Positions 1 through 35,362 of a stretch of 35,362 nt of DNA are shown in pieces. The DNA lies in IMG/VR virus record IMGVR_UViG_3300009537_000082, positions 1 through 35,362 of that record. One strand, written 5' to 3'. A program made the position numbers and the translations under genes. Position 1 is the first letter of the stretch. Each line of letters starts with the position of its first letter. The DNA is from a virus. A model generated the notes under the pieces. It was not told the DNA's origin and ran no database searches. It saw nothing but the letters and a program-made list of their open reading frames with translations.

Positions 1-99
1 GGGGAATCTTCAACAGTGATACAAGGTATCCCATCACGATCTTCTACGTTTTCAATGTTTTGCCAGCCTCCATCATTATCCAAATATAAAACTACATCA
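1..99. repeat. 99-nt terminal direct repeat, identical to 35264..35362 (circularisation overlap or short terminal redundancy)
   Basis: Base-by-base comparison shows 1-99 equals 35264-35362. Unique sequence length is 35263 nt. Confidence 0.95.
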
Positions 100-325: not shown

Positions 326-463
326 GGTTGTAGACAGGACTCGAACCCGCATAATAGCTTTAAGCATTGTTAATCAGCCCTAACCTATTAGGAAACGCTG
401 AGGCTATTATTTTAACTTCTTTCAATGCGTTGAAGTTGTGTCTACCAATTCCACCACTACAAC
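326..463 (-). tRNA. tRNA-like gene, atypically long (138 nt); anticodon not assignable by eye
   Basis: Minus strand. Acceptor GTTGTAG (463-457) pairs with CTACAAC (333-327). U8 is present. D arm GTGG-AATTGGTAGA-CAC is the type-II Leu-like kind. T arm is GCGGG-TTCGAGT-CCTGT. There are 87 nt between the D and T arms and no encoded CCA. Confidence 0.6.
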
Positions 464-527
464 CTCTCATCTAAATACTCTTACTTGTAATACTAATACC
501 CGCAGAACGGTATTAACTTATCCGGCC

Positions 528-683: not shown

Positions 684-858
684 AATTAACCTCACATTCC
701 ACCCATTAACCTTAACCTTTTTACACTTAGTAACACGCTAGTGTAGTCAACCTATATCCGAAGGGTGTGACGATATAGACTGTTTAATGCGCTACGTTAT
801 TCGGAACCAGTTACAAACCGTACCGATCTAGTATTTTGTATTGAGAGAGTAAAAAGTA

Positions 859-889
859 TTGACATGGTAAAAAGTATTTATGCTATACT
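859..889 (+). promoter_or_regulatory. sigma70-type promoter with extended -10 (TTGACA, 19-nt spacer, TGcTATACT)
   Basis: TTGACA at 859-864 and TGCTATACT at 881-889. The 13-mer TTATGCTATACTT is shared with the minus-strand promoter at 32222-32250. A 12-nt direct repeat GTAAAAAGTATT lies at 849-860 and 867-878. Confidence 0.5.
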
Positions 890-895
890 TCTATC

Positions 896-1012
896 ACATC
901 TAGTTCCTTCTCCCAAGAAACCACTAGATATTTCAATCTTACCCCATGTTGTTTTCACTAGCAACTAAGATTGTAAGCCGTACCCCTAGCGGTGAAACTA
1001 GGGGATTTTATT
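896..1012 (+). ncRNA. candidate small non-coding RNA (about 117 nt, or about 152 nt if it reads to the second terminator)
   Basis: Predicted start near A896, 7 nt after the -10. Hairpin 1 is ATCTAGT/ACTAGAT (898-929). Hairpin 2 is CAATCTTA/TAAGATTG (934-973). The terminator hairpin is at 983-1012. The only ORF is 38 aa and has no RBS. Confidence 0.4.
983..1012 (+). terminator. rho-independent terminator (plus strand)
   Basis: CCCCTAG-cggtgaaa-CTAGGGG followed by ATTTTATT. Confidence 0.6.
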
Positions 1013-1208
1013 CATCACTTTTGCCGGACTCACCCTCCGGCTTTTTTAATCCCATGTAAATTGAATCGCTTGATTGTGAAATAACAACATCGCCAATCTT
1101 CAGTTTTACTTTAATTTTTGCTGGCTCATCAAACATTGGACAATCCGTTTCAACATCAACAGAGAGGTTGTCAGCTAGGTATTTTATAACATCATCAAAT
1201 TCACTCAT
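1008..1208 (-). CDS. hypothetical protein (66 aa from ATG 1208; GTG 1217 is an alternative start)
   Basis: ORF track entry 1008..1217. AAGGTGA and GGAGGG lie upstream. The first codons and RBS are identical to those of the next gene (25-nt repeat). Confidence 0.6.
   Translation of the reverse strand: MSEFDDVIKYLADNLSVDVETDCPMFDEPAKIKVKLKIGDVVISQSSDSIYMGLKKPEGESGKSDE
1023..1047 (+). terminator. second rho-independent terminator (plus strand), antisense inside CDS 1008..1208
   Basis: GCCGGA-ctcaccc-TCCGGC followed by TTTTTT. On the minus strand the hairpin is preceded, not followed, by the homopolymer run. Confidence 0.6.
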
Positions 1209-1235
1209 ATCATTCACCTTTGCCCTCCGGCTTTT

Positions 1236-4812: not shown

Positions 4813-5418
4813 ATGCCATTAAATGTAAAAGATACCGGCGGCGGTCAAGATTTTGATCCTGTGCCACAAGGAACTCATGCGGCAGTTTGTTATTTGGTTG
4901 CTGACATTGGTATGCAGCCAACAACATACGGGGATAAGCATAAAGTTATTATCGGATTTGAGTTACCAGACAATCAAATTGAATACAAAGATAAGGACGG
5001 GAAAACAGTTAAAGCACCGATGATTATTAATAACTTCTACACGGCTTCATTGTCATCAAAAGCAATCCTTACCGGTGATTTAGAGGGATGGAGAGGACGA
5101 TCATTTACAAAGGATGAACTGAAAGGATTTAACTTGTTTAACGTGCTAGGGAAACCCTGTGTCATTACTGTTGTGCATAATGTTGTAGGTGATAAGACTT
5201 ATGCAAATATTAAAAGCATCGGCCAGATCATGAAAGGCATGGAAGTGGCGCCAGCTACTCGATTGCTGAAATATTCGCCCGATGAGCCGCAGCAATATGA
5301 AGAATTGCCTGAGTGGATTCAAAAGAAAATCGGCGGAGCTATTACGGAAAAGCCGCAAGGTCATCCGCAAAGTGAAAATCCTGCACCTATGGATTTCGAC
5401 GACGACATTCCTTTTTAA
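4813..5418 (+). CDS. single-stranded DNA-binding protein, DUF669-type, with a bacterial SSB C-terminal tip
   Basis: N-terminal pattern G..FDPVPQG.H.AV...D.G resembles DUF669. The C-terminus PMDFDDDIPF is identical to the E. coli SSB tail. Confidence 0.75.
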   Translation: MPLNVKDTGGGQDFDPVPQGTHAAVCYLVADIGMQPTTYGDKHKVIIGFELPDNQIEYKDKDGKTVKAPMIINNFYTASLSSKAILTGDLEGWRGRSFTKDELKGFNLFNVLGKPCVITVVHNVVGDKTYANIKSIGQIMKGMEVAPATRLLKYSPDEPQQYEELPEWIQKKIGGAITEKPQGHPQSENPAPMDFDDDIPF

Positions 5419-32871: not shown

Positions 32872-33118
32872 TTTCCCTGCGCGCCCCTAACCTTGCCGAC
32901 CACTCACTTTCTGGAAGTACAACCTTTCGTCTGTCGTCAATAAACTCACACAATAAGGCAAGATGGGATAAAAACATCAATACTGCGAAACACTCCCATA
33001 AAGTCGTATTATCAGTGGTTAAAGCAAATACTAAAGCGATAGCGGATAAAGATACTGAACCAACAAAGAACTTAATGTATCTTGATGATGATAGTAGGAT
33101 ATTAATCTCGTCGTGCAT
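32864..33118 (-). CDS. hypothetical membrane protein (84 aa, 2 TM helices)
   Basis: ORF track. Hydrophobic helices FFVGSVSLSAIALVFAL and FAVLMFLSHLALL. Preceded by the conserved 22-nt leader. Confidence 0.65.
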   Translation of the reverse strand: MHDEINILLSSSRYIKFFVGSVSLSAIALVFALTTDNTTLWECFAVLMFLSHLALLCEFIDDRRKVVLPESEWSARLGARRESD

Positions 33119-33148
33119 TATCTTCTCCTATAGAGTTATGCTGGTCAC

Positions 33149-33277: not shown

Positions 33278-33528
33278 TTATCTTCTCCTATATAGTTAAG
33301 GGTTTTATCTATTCCAAAACAATCCTTGCCTGATAAGCCATTATCAACGAAAGCGTACTTATATAATTTATCGTAAGCCTCAACCAACTCAGCCTTGTCC
33401 TTTTGGAGTTGTTCAATTTTTCTACTTGCTTCCATATAGCGCGAATACCGCTGCATTTTATCTATTTCTGAGTTATCCCATAATTCAGGCGGCATATTTA
33501 AAACGCCATGCAACATTAAATCACTCAT
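33274..33528 (-). CDS. hypothetical coiled-coil protein (84 aa), paralogous segment with 34143..34436
   Basis: ORF track. The shared segment is IEQLQKDKAELVE versus IEQLQTDKVELVE, with about 31/37 nt identity, plus a shared ..GED C-terminal motif. Confidence 0.65.
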   Translation of the reverse strand: MSDLMLHGVLNMPPELWDNSEIDKMQRYSRYMEASRKIEQLQKDKAELVEAYDKLYKYAFVDNGLSGKDCFGIDKTLNYIGEDK

Positions 33529-33558
33529 TTATCTTCTCCTATAGAGTTATGTTGGGTT

Positions 33559-34164
33559 TTAACTAACACCTTTATTAAAATCAACGGCCATTTGCTTGGC
33601 ATCTTCCATTGTTTTTGCTGTCCATTCACCTTTGCCGCACTTAATTTCAGTATAATTATCTTCAAACAAAGTCATTTCTGGCAAGCTGTCGAGATTTTCT
33701 AAATCTTCCACAATATTTTCCATTGTCGTCATTGGCAACTTTATTGGGGTATGGAGTATTCTTATTCCACTTCTGTCCGGCAATACCTGACATTCTGCTC
33801 GGTGTTGTTCTGCACATTCTTTGCTTATGTCGGCAAAGAAGTTTGCGTGGTCTTCTATCATTTCTTCGGGTGTGCTGGCTATATAATGACAATCACCTTT
33901 TTTACAGGTTGAGCCAATTTCAAAGCCGTAAATAGCTCTATGGCTCCATCCATACCACTTGTTATCTTTTGGACTAAACCCAACGCCGTGTGTTAATTCT
34001 TCTGTTATTTCCCTTTCGGCCAAGTATTTAATATTATCTTCCATGCCGACTAAAGTTATATAACTACCATCAAATTTGCTCCTGTACTCTTCTGTTCCTT
34101 TAGATAACGACTTTAGAGAGGGAACTACATAAGCAACCTTCTCTAAATACTTTTTAATATCCAT
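33559..34164 (-). CDS. hypothetical protein (201 aa)
   Basis: ORF track. No motif recognised. Confidence 0.65.
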   Translation of the reverse strand: MDIKKYLEKVAYVVPSLKSLSKGTEEYRSKFDGSYITLVGMEDNIKYLAEREITEELTHGVGFSPKDNKWYGWSHRAIYGFEIGSTCKKGDCHYIASTPEEMIEDHANFFADISKECAEQHRAECQVLPDRSGIRILHTPIKLPMTTMENIVEDLENLDSLPEMTLFEDNYTEIKCGKGEWTAKTMEDAKQMAVDFNKGVS

Positions 34165-34436
34165 TCATCTTCACCTACAGAGTTAATTAGGGCTTTAATT
34201 TCTCCGTACATTAATTCTTCTTCATCTTCCCAATTATCAGGATGAATATGTATTAAATCTAATGACTGCCCGAGCTTTTCAACCAGCTCAACCTTATCCG
34301 TTTGGAGTTGTTCTATTTGTTTTTCAAGCACACCTTCCCGTCTTAAAAGTTTAGGGTTTTTATTCTCACATAGCCGTGACACTGTACAGCCTCGTTCGCA
34401 TCGTTCCCCATCTGTACAAAAAATTCTATCACTCAT
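34143..34436 (-). CDS. hypothetical Cys-rich coiled-coil protein (97 aa)
   Basis: ORF track. RBS is GGAGG. The N-terminus has CTDGERCERGC...C. Confidence 0.65.
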   Translation of the reverse strand: MSDRIFCTDGERCERGCTVSRLCENKNPKLLRREGVLEKQIEQLQTDKVELVEKLGQSLDLIHIHPDNWEDEEELMYGEIKALINSVGEDEWILKSI

Positions 34437-35244: not shown

Positions 35245-35362
35245 CTAGCTTTCAGAAAAAAGCGGGGAATCTTCAACAGTGATACAAGGTATCCCATCAC
35301 GATCTTCTACGTTTTCAATGTTTTGCCAGCCTCCATCATTATCCAAATATAAAACTACATCA
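35245..35362 (-). CDS. 3' part of the junction-spanning small ORF (same gene as 1..146)
   Basis: Stop TAG at 35245-35247. Bases 35264-35362 duplicate 1-99. Confidence 0.55.
   Translation of the reverse strand, partial: DVVLYLDNDGGWQNIENVEDRDGIPCITVEDSPLFSES
35264..35362. repeat. 99-nt terminal direct repeat, right copy
   Basis: Identical to 1-99. Confidence 0.95.

What the first reader, a model, noticed from the sequence alone, without database searches (positions are those of the whole stretch)
326..463. 138-nt tRNA-like gene: canonical acceptor, D and T arms but an 87-nt centre with no normal anticodon arm
On the minus strand the outer arms are textbook:
- a 7-bp acceptor, GTTGTAG/CTACAAC, with a possible eighth pair G464:C326
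- U8
- a type-II Leu-like D arm, GTGG-AATTGGTAGA-CAC
- a T arm, GCGGG-TTCGAGT-CCTGT

There are 87 nt between the D and T arms, against roughly 23-40 in real tRNAs. Where the anticodon arm should be, the helix AACTTC/GAAGTT closes a 12-nt loop, AACGCATTGAAA. An alternative fold is TTCAA-CGCA-TTGAA. I could not place a U33-NNN-purine 7-nt loop.

Next comes an 8-bp helix, ATAATAGC/GCTATTAT, which abuts the T stem. It encloses a 45-nt insert that itself folds as TCAGC/GCTGA around CCTAA-TAGG-TTAGG. No CCA is encoded.

Possible explanations are a giant variable arm, an intron-like insertion, a tRNA mimic or decoy (for example against host anticodon nucleases), or a decayed gene. All other long ORFs in the genome read in the standard code, so a suppressor for recoding is not required.
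Basis: partly seen in the sequence, partly recalled or inferred. Interest (0 to 1): 0.7.

Follow-up and report, generated by a model that had tools for sequence, protein, structure and literature searches.

The report
Anticodon-less tRNA-like RNA gene in phage
This phage carries a gene for an RNA with the ends and core of a leucine tRNA but no anticodon and a huge extra arm; it belongs to a large, mostly unannotated group of such genes in phage genomes whose function is unknown.

Summary
Window 326-463 (- strand) encodes a 138-nt RNA with a perfect 7-bp acceptor stem, U8, a leucine-type D arm, a consensus T arm and an 87-nt centre with no 7-nt anticodon loop.

Default ARAGORN and Rfam at its curated threshold miss it. 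The Rfam tRNA model still scores 28.7 bits against a cut-off of 29, skipping 80 nt.

It is not a one-off. A pattern specifying only the D loop and T loop, 72-102 nt apart, hit more than 119 viral contigs. Of 98 distinct hits, 74 also have a 7/7 acceptor pairing. Shell helices covary strongly and centres are unrelated in sequence. The nucleotide before the T stem is U in 68 of 69.

The window RNA also has G-1:C73, the bacterial tRNA-His mark. This recurs in the family (7 of 11 C73 members; p = 6e-7).

No orthologue, no unique intron solution, no tmRNA features and no recurrent partner protein were found.

Best reading: a non-decoding, class-II tRNA-like small RNA matured by host tRNA enzymes, with the giant arm as the functional part. 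It lies in an early, accessory region next to a Thoeris-inhibitor homologue. Its function is inferred, not shown. I rate it a new variant of a known kind.

The parts
464..464 (-). G-1, able to pair with C73 (326). This is the tRNA-His-like eighth pair.
   Evidence: Sequence. In the family, G-1 accompanies C73 in 7 of 11 cases against 1 of 72 otherwise, Fisher p = 6e-7.
457..463 (-). Acceptor stem, 5' strand (GUUGUAG).
   Evidence: 7/7 Watson-Crick with 327-333. Pairing probability 0.92-0.97.
455..456 (-). U8 and G9.
   Evidence: Invariant in all 60 aligned family shells.
438..454 (-). Leucine-type D arm: GUG / GAAUUGGUAGA / CAC.
   Evidence: The D region matches tRNA-Leu far better than any other isotype among 346 ARAGORN tRNAs: mean score 12.6 against at most 8.4. 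The stem covaries in the family.
414..437 (-). Hairpin at the anticodon-arm position: AACUUC / 12-nt loop AACGCAUUGAAA / GAAGUU. It has no 7-nt loop with U33 and a purine at 37.
   Evidence: pairing probability about 0.63. Other family members carry loops of 3-12 nt here.
411..413 (-). AAA spacer between the hairpin and the giant arm.
352..410 (-). Giant variable arm: basal helix (A)UAAUAGC/GCUAUUA around a 44-nt insert (359-402). The insert has two competing inner folds.
   Evidence: basal helix pairing probability about 0.75.
351..351 (-). U immediately before the T stem (the position-48 equivalent). By tRNA-Leu rules it is the likely Levitt partner of A15.
   Evidence: U in 68 of 69 non-redundant family centres. 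More than 90% conserved in the shell alignment.
334..350 (-). T arm: GCGGG / UUCGAGU / CCUGU.
   Evidence: The stem covaries in the family.
327..333 (-). Acceptor stem, 3' strand (CUACAAC).
326..326 (-). Discriminator C73. It is followed by UUU, so no CCA is encoded.
   Evidence: Family discriminators: A 57, C 11, U 8, G 7 of 83.

Best explanation
Window 326-463 (- strand) is a real gene for a non-decoding, class-II (leucine-type) tRNA-like small RNA.

Shown:
- It keeps everything that makes the L-shaped tRNA core and the acceptor/T-arm minihelix: a 7-bp acceptor, U8, A14/A15, G18G19, the U before the T stem, and the T loop.
- It has lost the anticodon loop. A hairpin with a 12-nt loop takes its place.
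- It carries a variable arm of about 59 nt.
- It is one member of a large, phage-enriched set of genes built the same way, in which the shell is constrained and the centre diverges fast.

Inferred:
- It is co-transcribed with the neighbouring early genes.
- Host RNase P and 3' processing cut it out, and the host CCA-adding enzyme adds CCA.
- It accumulates as a stable RNA of about 140 nt that cannot read codons.
- It acts as a tRNA mimic or tRNA-scaffolded RNA on a host tRNA-binding factor, with the giant arm as the specific part.
- It most plausibly serves host takeover or counter-defence.
- Because it has G-1:C73, it may be charged by HisRS. HisRS is one of the few synthetases that need little or nothing from the anticodon.
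For: - Shell quality: the Rfam tRNA model scores 28.7 bits despite an 80-nt skip. The minimum-free-energy fold is a cloverleaf.
- Family: a D-loop/T-loop pattern with a 72-102-nt gap hit more than 119 viral contigs. Of 98 distinct hits, 74 have a 7/7 acceptor pairing and 9 more have 6/7, although the pattern did not specify the acceptor.
- Covariation on 60 distinct shells (selected for at least 6/7 acceptor pairs; D and T stems unselected): 98.6% of cells are paired. Twelve of 15 pairs show changes on both sides. The covariation score is 0.862 against 0.216 in shuffles, and pairing falls to about 40% when partners are slid.
- U48 is kept in 68 of 69 centres.
- Centres have no shared motif.
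- ARAGORN in intron mode gives scattered 'anticodons' across the family, or no call at all, apart from a subgroup read as tRNA-Leu.
- L003 and L119 are syntenic. Their flanks are 77-82% identical and their shells 92-96%. Their centres are only about 58% identical in a forced alignment. Both still keep a 5-bp, 6-nt-loop hairpin with almost every stem position changed.
- Phage enrichment: the same pattern gives only about 20 true cases in 185,579 bacterial genomes. Several of these match phage hits exactly or nearly.
- Cultured examples are unannotated: Achromobacter N4-like phages phiAxp-3 and JWAlpha. The JWAlpha paper reports that tRNAscan-SE found no tRNA (PMC3915230).
- The G-1:C73 association is specific. 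Among members without A73, position -1 pairs with 73 in 14 of 26, against 18 of 75 canonical tRNAs from the same loci, p = 0.007.
- Context: an early region of small orphan ORFs, with a Pfam Tad6 (Thoeris inhibitor) homologue at E = 2e-38 and DNA methyltransferases nearby.
Against: - No orthologue of this particular RNA was found. Its own centre therefore has no covariation support, and selection on it is untested.
- There is no expression data.
- No sigma-70-like promoter was found on its strand.
- Folding energy is not exceptional.
- The family was collected with a pattern that forces a leucine-type shell and a long gap, so its homogeneity is partly by construction. It is also visibly heterogeneous: one subgroup looks like true tRNA-Leu(UAA) with an insert in the anticodon loop.
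- No recurrent partner protein was found, and no antisense target in the phage's own genome. The mode of action is therefore a guess.
- Proximity to an anti-defence gene is weak evidence.
Confidence: 0.5

Rival explanations
1. RNA-processing punctuation (a 't-element'). Only the shell matters. It recruits RNase P and 3' tRNA nucleases to cut the polycistronic early transcript between the upstream 51-aa ORF and the downstream 54-aa ORF. The excised RNA itself has no function.
For: - The RNA sits between same-strand ORFs, with no promoter match of its own.
- The shell is conserved while the centre varies.
- U at -1, the RNase P-preferred leader base (established knowledge), dominates in the family at 41 of 83.
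Against: - A normal-sized tRNA or a minihelix would do this job. It does not explain a centre of about 87 nt kept structured.
- It does not explain the recurrent architecture of a hairpin plus a long arm.
- It does not explain the conserved U48 and D-loop tertiary nucleotides.
- A paired -1:73 is expected to disturb RNase P site choice rather than help it (established knowledge).
Confidence: 0.15
2. A decaying tRNA-Leu gene. An ancestral phage tRNA-Leu lost its anticodon loop and picked up insertions. The shell has simply not yet eroded.
For: - No orthologue exists, so selection is untested.
- C73 instead of the A73 of tRNA-Leu.
- In N4-like phages, an annotated tRNA-Leu with a 7-nt loop (inbricus) has relatives with a 6-nt loop or with 34-38-nt loop inserts, which looks like degeneration.
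- The gene lies in a hypervariable slot that relatives lack.
Against: - Not one mismatch in the acceptor, D or T stems, and every conserved core nucleotide is intact.
- Insertions produced stable helices, not random sequence.
- The same design recurs in at least 83 distinct genes with strong shell covariation.
- The 38-nt insert is conserved at 33 of 38 positions between JWDelta and phiAxp-3, phages of different genera.
- The genome is compact.
Confidence: 0.15
3. A functional decoding tRNA whose extra sequence is removed: an intron, or trimming of the loop or arm.
For: - ARAGORN in intron mode returns tRNA-Ser(GCT) with a 65-nt intron.
- The last 7 nt of the 12-nt loop (AUUGAAA) have the form N-U-NNN-purine-N.
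- A family subgroup (L028, L058, L062, L067, L072, L090, L204) does look like tRNA-Leu(UAA/CAA) with a 41-50-nt insert in the anticodon loop. In the locus examined (L028) it sits in a tRNA array that lacks a normal copy of that isoacceptor.
Against: - The ARAGORN solution has an A.C mismatch, T37 and a non-standard intron site.
- The deletion scan gives 20 different anticodons.
- No group I intron model matches, and the insert is far too short for one.
- Bacteria have no known protein-based tRNA splicing (established knowledge).
- The window has no other tRNA and reads in the standard code.
Confidence: 0.07
4. A miniature tmRNA-like RNA that tags or rescues ribosomes.
For: - ARAGORN in tmRNA mode at 80% threshold proposes the tag ASAFPNRLGLINNA* with a GCC resume codon.
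- The topology is tmRNA-like: a long helix runs into the T arm.
Against: - No G3:U70; the pair is U3-A70, and the 3:70 pair is G.U in only 1 of 83 family members.
- Default ARAGORN finds no tmRNA and there is no Rfam tmRNA hit.
- At 138 nt it is under half the size of known tmRNAs.
- The tag lacks the usual hydrophobic Ala-rich end.
- A checked family member (L094) has no in-frame stop.
Confidence: 0.02
5. The region is really a small protein gene: the 36-aa ORF at 470-360 (- strand), MRGCSGG...LINNA.
For: The ORF starts with ATG and has AAGAG eight nucleotides upstream.
Against: - The ORF is exactly the frame that runs through the tRNA shell.
- The tRNA-like signal is specific and shared with a family whose centres share no motif.
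- No homologue evidence.
Confidence: 0.02

Closest known systems
Bacterial and phage tRNA-Leu (class II tRNA, Rfam RF00005)
   Same: A 7-bp acceptor, U8, a 3-bp D stem with the loop GAAUUGGUAGA, a T arm with UUCGAGU, U48 next to the T stem, and a variable arm that forms a helix.
   Different: There is no 7-nt anticodon loop and no anticodon. The variable arm is about 59 nt against about 13-17 nt. The discriminator is C73, not A73. The Rfam score is just below the curated cut-off, and default ARAGORN misses it.
Phage T4 stable RNAs C and D (species 1 and 2; rnaC is 139 nt)
   Same: Phage-encoded, about the same length, with tRNA-like acceptor and T-arm ends around a non-tRNA centre. Their function has been unknown for 50 years (PMC3014915; PMC9697503).
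   Different: T4 rnaC lies inside the tRNA gene cluster. It has no leucine-type D arm, and its acceptor has two U.U mismatches. Reading it next to the window RNA shows no evident sequence similarity. The window has no tRNA genes at all.
tRNA-like genes of N4-like phages (phiAxp-3, JWAlpha, JWDelta, Axy22; called tRNA-Leu in Pseudomonas phage inbricus)
   Same: A leucine-type D loop and T loop, with an anticodon-arm position carrying a 6-nt loop or 34-38-nt inserts. They are unannotated or missed by tRNAscan-SE.
   Different: There the insert is in the anticodon-arm loop, the variable arm is of normal size, and the acceptor has a conserved AAU bulge. In the window RNA the acceptor is regular and the expansion is in the variable arm.
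tmRNA
   Same: An aminoacylatable tRNA-like shell without an anticodon, with a long helix in place of the anticodon and variable region.
   Different: No G3:U70, no pseudoknots detected, no credible tag, and half the size or less.
YrlA / bacterial Y RNAs (tRNA mimics bound by Ro60; PMC4201824)
   Same: Non-decoding tRNA mimics, also found in phages.
   Different: The topology is reversed, from my recollection of that paper, which I listed but did not read. In YrlA the RNA termini form the Ro-binding stem and the acceptor-like stem is capped. Here the termini form the acceptor. No Rfam hit.
Histidine-accepting tRNA-like structures of plant RNA viruses (PMC8127992)
   Same: A viral tRNA mimic that carries histidine identity without decoding. 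This is an analogy only.
   Different: Those are 3'-terminal pseudoknotted elements of RNA genomes. This is a free-standing gene in a DNA phage with a true cloverleaf shell. Charging has not been tested.

Membership tests
Canonical tRNA (RF00005 / ARAGORN) | 7-bp acceptor, D arm with G18G19, T arm with the T-psi-C loop. | tested here: met
Canonical tRNA (RF00005 / ARAGORN) | 5-bp anticodon stem closing a 7-nt loop with U33 and a purine at 37. | tested here: not met
   The loop is 12 nt. The deletion scan gives no unique solution.
Canonical tRNA (RF00005 / ARAGORN) | Passes the curated detection thresholds. | tested here: not met
   28.7 bits against a gathering score of 29. Default ARAGORN finds 0 genes.
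tRNA-Leu (class II) | Leucine-type D loop and a helical variable arm with U48. | tested here: met
tRNA-Leu (class II) | Discriminator A73 (major LeuRS determinant; established knowledge) and a Leu anticodon. | tested here: not met
   C73 and no anticodon.
tRNA-His identity set | G-1 paired with C73. | tested here: met
   G464:C326. The association is recurrent in the family.
tRNA-His identity set | GUG anticodon; actual histidylation. | not testable with these tools
   There is no anticodon. Charging needs an enzyme assay.
tmRNA | G3:U70 alanine identity. | tested here: not met
   U3-A70.
tmRNA | Detected by tmRNA models; pseudoknots and a tag reading frame. | tested here: not met
   Only a relaxed-threshold ARAGORN call.
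Group I intron in a tRNA gene | Catalytic core matching the Intron_gpI model; intron in the anticodon loop. | tested here: not met
   No hit even at E <= 10. The extra sequence is 44-65 nt.
YrlA / Y RNA | Termini form the Ro-binding stem; the tRNA-like domain is capped. | tested here: not met
   The termini form the acceptor stem. No Rfam hit.
T4 RNA C / RNA D | Located in a phage tRNA cluster; sequence relationship. | tested here: not met
   There are no tRNAs in the window. T4 rnaC, read, lacks the leucine-type D arm.
Phage long-centre leucine-shell tRNA-like genes (set defined here) | D loop AAUUGGUAGAC and T loop GGUUCGAGUCC 72-102 nt apart, closed by a 7-bp acceptor. | tested here: met
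   The gap is 92 nt. Compare the family.
Phage long-centre leucine-shell tRNA-like genes (set defined here) | U before the T stem; a short hairpin after the D arm; a long arm ending at the T stem. | tested here: met
Phage long-centre leucine-shell tRNA-like genes (set defined here) | Common descent or common function of the members. | tested here: inconclusive
   The centres share no motif. The window centre has no match in 1.9 Mb of fetched loci. The set is heterogeneous.

The most novel reading that the evidence does not exclude
Phages carry a widespread, modular class of 'tRNA-shell' RNAs: class-II tRNA cores that hold fast-evolving cargo arms in place of the anticodon and variable region. 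These are matured by the host tRNA machinery. They keep acceptor-end identity marks for synthetases that ignore the anticodon: A73 for LeuRS, and G-1:C73 for HisRS as in this window. They would then be charged but non-decoding tRNA mimics used in phage-host conflict, for example as inhibitors, decoys or adaptors for tRNA-directed immune effectors or for aminoacyl-tRNA-using enzymes.
Probability: 0.15. Interest if true: 0.85.

Novelty: new variant of a known kind. Interest (0 to 1): 0.6.

Why it matters
Standard annotation misses these genes. ARAGORN with default settings, Rfam at its curated threshold, and tRNAscan-SE in the JWAlpha paper all failed on them. Hundreds of phage genomes therefore carry an unrecorded small RNA.

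If the RNAs are stable and functional, they are a natural counterpart of the engineered 'tRNA scaffold'. They would also offer a handle on the 50-year-old puzzle of T4 RNA C and RNA D.

The pattern of a constrained shell and a fast-evolving arm, the tRNA-His-like G-1:C73 mark and the early, accessory-gene setting give concrete experiments: sizing, charging and gene knock-out. Cultured hosts are available in the Achromobacter N4-like phages.

If the RNA is only a processing signal or a dying gene, the result is still useful as an annotation caveat.

Tried and rejected
- Orthologue hunt. Exact-shell and relaxed patterns were run in viral contigs, metagenomes and genomes. I examined relatives found through the large terminase subunit, 76% and 71% identical. 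I examined contigs carrying homologues of the 128-aa neighbour. I searched with the two adjacent small proteins and tried exact-protein look-ups. None produced another copy of this RNA. The gene sits in a slot that relatives lack.
- Intron hypothesis: ARAGORN intron mode and an exhaustive deletion scan gave no unique canonical product.
- tmRNA: see the rival explanations.
- Antisense regulator of the phage's own genes: the longest complementarity or identity elsewhere in the window is 12-13 nt, as expected by chance.
- Conserved partner protein: clustering of ORFs within 3 kb of family members and a Pfam scan of 149 representative neighbours found nothing recurrent. The neighbours are ordinary replication, packaging and structural genes.
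- Shared centre motif: k-mer enrichment gave only weak signals, such as AAAUCC in 8 centres against 1.4 expected.
- Integration site (attP): both halves of the tRNA are present. The genome is a circular assembly with no integrase among the ORFs scanned.
- Literature: eight full-text searches found no description of this class. There was only a general remark that phage genomes hold non-canonical tRNA-like structures (PMC10690425).
- JWDelta at first looked like a tRNA-like gene split by an intron. Reading the sequence showed a free-standing HNH endonuclease gene placed just 3' of an intact gene, with a duplicated T-arm/acceptor fragment.
Full report
WHAT IS THERE

The only correction is that the insert inside the 8-bp helix is 44 nt, not 45.

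The minimum-free-energy fold of the 138 nt is a cloverleaf. It has an acceptor stem, a D arm, a 6-bp hairpin with a 12-nt loop where the anticodon arm should be, a very long arm that runs into the T stem, and a T arm.

Standard detectors mostly fail:
- Default ARAGORN finds no tRNA or tmRNA in the whole window.
- Rfam at its gathering thresholds reports nothing.
- With E-value reporting, the tRNA model aligns end to end at 326-463. It scores 28.7 bits against a cut-off of 29, E = 9e-4 for the 801 nt searched, and skips 80 nt in the middle.

Thermodynamic stability is not unusual. The z-score is -1.2 for the whole RNA and -1.9 for the centre.

THE GENOME

The window is a circular assembly of about 35.26 kb; bases 1-99 repeat at 35264-35362. 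It is a podovirus-like phage. The large terminase subunit, portal, major head protein and tail proteins all lie on the - strand. The portal is about 33% identical to those of Pelagibacter and Methylophilales podophages. There is no nucleotide match among cultured phages.

There are no other tRNA genes, and long ORFs read in the standard code.

The RNA gene lies among small, mostly orphan, same-strand ORFs. About 1.4 kb downstream across the circle junction is a homologue of the Pfam family Tad6, 'Type I Thoeris inhibitor' (E = 2e-38). DNA methyltransferase genes are also nearby. This looks like an early host-takeover or accessory region.

No sigma-70-like promoter matches its strand just upstream. 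Co-transcription with its neighbours is therefore the simplest assumption.

IT IS NOT A ONE-OFF

I searched IMG/VR contigs for the D-loop word AATTGGTAGAC followed 72-102 nt later by the T-loop word GGTTCGAGTCC. The pattern says nothing about the acceptor stem. Even so, among 98 distinct hits, 74 have a perfect 7/7 pairing between the 7 nt upstream and the 7 nt downstream, and 9 more have 6/7.

I aligned 60 distinct shells, selected for at least 6/7 acceptor pairs (the D and T stems were not selected on), and counted pairs for the cloverleaf:
- 98.6% of cells are paired.
- 12 of 15 pairs show changes on both sides.
- The covariation score is 0.862, against 0.216 in shuffles.
- Pairing drops to about 40% when partners are slid by 1-3 columns.

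The centres are 67-96 nt long and share no motif. The window's centre matches nothing in 1.9 Mb of fetched loci.

The nucleotide just before the T stem is U in 68 of 69 non-redundant centres. By the established rules for tRNA-Leu, this is the U48 partner of A15, the Levitt pair. With the invariant U8, A14/A15, G18G19 and T loop, it indicates that the L-shaped core is maintained.

The window's D region is clearly leucine-type. Its mean alignment score to 49 tRNA-Leu genes is 12.6, against at most 8.4 for any other isotype.

ARCHITECTURE CLASSES IN THE FAMILY

Many members, like the window RNA, have two elements. The first is a short hairpin directly after the D arm, with a loop of 3-12 nt that cannot be an anticodon loop. 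The second is a long composite arm that ends at U48.

A second class looks different (L028, L058, L062, L067, L072, L090, and L204 in a bacterial metagenome-assembled genome). It has a normal anticodon stem and a normal Leu variable arm, with a 41-50-nt insert inside the anticodon loop. Removing the insert would restore CUUAAAA. In L028, the locus I examined, the gene sits in a jumbo-phage tRNA array that lacks a normal tRNA-Leu(UAA). That class may be a real interrupted tRNA, and I treat it as a separate matter.

ARAGORN in intron mode gives scattered 'anticodons', or no call, across the rest of the family. For the window RNA, 75 of 1395 single deletions produced a call, with 20 different anticodons. 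No group I intron model matches. There is no unique way to turn this gene into a decoding tRNA.

SHELL CONSTRAINED, CENTRE FAST

Nine or more unrelated centres share the acceptor AGUCAGG. Their flanks are mostly unrelated at the DNA level.

The one syntenic pair is L003 and L119:
- Flanks are 77-82% identical.
- Shells are 92-96% identical.
- Centres are only about 58% identical in a forced global alignment.
- Both keep a 5-bp, 6-nt-loop hairpin after the D arm with almost every stem position changed, and a long bipartite arm.

In N4-like phages there is an orthologous series:
- Pseudomonas phage inbricus has an annotated 95-nt tRNA-Leu with a 7-nt loop.
- JWAlpha has a 6-nt loop.
- phiAxp-3 and JWDelta have a 38-nt loop insert, identical at 33 of 38 positions although the phages belong to different genera.
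- Axy22 has a different insert of about 34 nt.
- All share an odd acceptor with an AAU bulge.

The JWAlpha and JWDelta paper states that tRNAscan-SE found no tRNA gene (PMC3915230). Such genes therefore go unrecorded even in cultured phages.

PHAGE ASSOCIATION

The same pattern in one genome for each of 185,579 bacterial and archaeal species (596 Gb) gave 76 hits. About 20 are true long-centre genes; the rest are tandem tRNAs or assembly artefacts. Several match IMG/VR phage hits exactly or nearly, for example those in Parabacteroides, Bacteroides, Pararobbsia and a Flavobacterium metagenome-assembled genome.

No partner protein recurs next to these genes.

THE ACCEPTOR END

The family discriminator is A in 57 of 83 members. 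That is compatible with leucine identity but no more frequent than in ordinary tRNAs from the same loci, where it is 119 of 194.

The window RNA has C73 with G at -1. In the family, 7 of 11 C73 members have G-1, against 1 of 72 others (Fisher p = 6e-7). More generally, members without A73 pair position -1 with 73 in 14 of 26 cases, against 18 of 75 canonical tRNAs from the same loci (p = 0.007).

G-1:C73 is the major identity mark for bacterial HisRS. HisRS, like LeuRS, depends little or not at all on the anticodon (established knowledge). This is a lead towards aminoacylation, not a demonstration of it.

The three bases after the discriminator follow C-N-A in 50 of 83 members (CAA in 27), but not in the window, which has UUU.

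WHAT IT MOST LIKELY IS

The RNA is a gene for a non-decoding class-II tRNA-like small RNA.

Shown: the shell, the loss of the anticodon loop, the giant arm, membership of a recurrent phage-enriched design, and strong covariation of the shell.

Inferred: excision by RNase P and 3' nucleases, CCA addition, stability, and action as a tRNA mimic or tRNA-scaffolded RNA whose long arm carries the specificity. A role in host takeover or counter-defence rests only on the fast-evolving centre and the gene neighbourhood.

RIVALS

- A pure processing signal, about 0.15. This explains shell-only constraint, but not a long structured centre, the kept tertiary nucleotides or a paired -1:73.
- A decaying tRNA-Leu, about 0.15. 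This fits the missing orthologues and C73, but not a flawless shell in a compact genome or the recurrence of the design.
- A spliced decoding tRNA, about 0.07.
- A mini-tmRNA, about 0.02. There is no G3:U70 and no model hit. Only a relaxed ARAGORN call proposes the tag ASAFPNRLGLINNA.
- A 36-aa ORF at 470-360, about 0.02.

COMPARISON WITH WHAT IS KNOWN

The closest precedents are the T4 stable RNAs C and D. They are 139 and 119 nt, tRNA-like at their ends, and of unknown function (PMC3014915; PMC9697503). T4 rnaC lacks the leucine-type D arm and lies in a tRNA cluster. I found no evidence of homology, so this is a resemblance in kind only.

Rfam 15 has no family for it.

I therefore rate it a new variant of a known kind: phage-encoded non-canonical tRNA-like RNAs.

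VERDICT

The gene is very likely real and part of an overlooked family. Its function is open. Interest is 0.6.

Noticed in passing
window 33559-34164 (-): A 201-aa ORF matches Pfam PF25188, 'Type I Thoeris inhibitor Tad6' (E = 2.3e-38, 131.9 bits). It has no PHROG hit. It lies about 1.4 kb downstream of the RNA across the circle junction.
   Followed up: partly
window 33118-33144, 33278-33304, 33529-33555, 34165-34191: Four copies of a 27-nt element (TTATCTTCTCCTATAGAGTTATGCTGG on the + strand). At least three lie directly upstream of - strand ORF starts (33118, 33528, 34164). On the - strand the element reads ...AACTCTATAGGAGAAGATAA. It could be a shared ribosome-binding site and promoter-like early-gene signal.
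   Followed up: no
window 1-99 and 35264-35362: An exact 99-nt direct repeat at the two ends. The window is a circularly closed assembly of about 35,263 bp.
   Followed up: yes
window 696-1007: About 310 nt without an ORF, upstream of the 51-aa ORF, with G+C-rich hairpins. Terminator-like sites at 983-1004 and 1023-1041 were scored on the + strand. There is only a chance-level Rfam hit: DUF2815 RNA at 704-754, E = 4.2.
   Followed up: partly
window 1197-1221 and 1611-1635: An exact 25-nt repeat covering the starts of two adjacent - strand ORFs. Both begin MNDMSEF / MSEF, so they are paralogous N-termini or a shared translation-initiation cassette.
   Followed up: no
L028 1327-1459; L058, L062, L067 7383-7516; L069, L090, L204: tRNA-Leu(UAA)-like genes, in a jumbo-phage tRNA array where checked (L028). 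They carry a conserved insert of about 49 nt in the anticodon loop. A covarying outer helix surrounds the core CCAGUG...GGGGCAGCACC and ends in (A/U)CCA. Removing the insert restores CUUAAAA. The insert is too short for a group I intron and may be a distinct small intron-like element.
   Followed up: partly
L011 3225-3356; L019 (- strand) 4821-4952; L026, L032, L050: A 131-132-nt 'tRNA within a tRNA'. An outer class-I shell (GGGCGGU UAGCUCAGUCUGGAUAGAGCGC ... GGUUCAAAUCC) encloses what looks like a circularly permuted second tRNA, with its T arm first and its D arm after. It sits next to two leucine-shell long-centre genes in the same phage group.
   Followed up: no
L159, L175, L197 (also L155, L169, L177): Cyanobacterial genomes and metagenome bins (Prochloron, Paraprochloron, Trichormus, Pseudanabaena), including complete chromosomes, carry a tRNA-Leu(UAA)-like gene with a conserved insert of about 50-58 nt (...UUGUCUGAAAAGGCCGUAGAGUUGAGGGUUAUC...). 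This replaces the usual group I intron of about 250 nt.
   Followed up: no
L223 (Achromobacter phage JWDelta) 501-923 and 920-950: A free-standing HNH endonuclease gene sits immediately 3' of the tRNA-like gene. It is followed by a duplicated T-arm/acceptor fragment. JWAlpha is 98% identical overall per the JWAlpha/JWDelta genome paper (PMC3915230), yet carries a different centre. This suggests that gene conversion driven by a homing endonuclease swaps variants of the tRNA-like gene.
   Followed up: partly
family loci L001-L119, 3' trailers: The three bases after the discriminator are C-N-A in 50 of 83 long-centre genes (CAA 27, CGA 10, CCA 8, CTA 5). CAA also follows some ordinary tRNAs in the same contigs. 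This may be a 3'-processing or CCA-repair signature.
   Followed up: no
L145 (phiAxp-3) 1760-2770; L146 (JWAlpha) 2086-2870; L223 996-1113: The roughly 1-kb 'intergenic' region of Achromobacter N4-like phages holds several further T-arm-like and tRNA-like pieces. It also gives a sub-threshold tmRNA model hit (30.7 bits against a cut-off of 47). This may be a cluster of unannotated tRNA-like RNAs.
   Followed up: no
window 360-470 (-): A 36-aa ORF (MRGCSGGIGRHNFNALKEVKIIASAFPNRLGLINNA) runs through the tRNA-like gene. It is the source of the 'tag peptide' in ARAGORN's relaxed tmRNA call and is judged spurious.
   Followed up: partly
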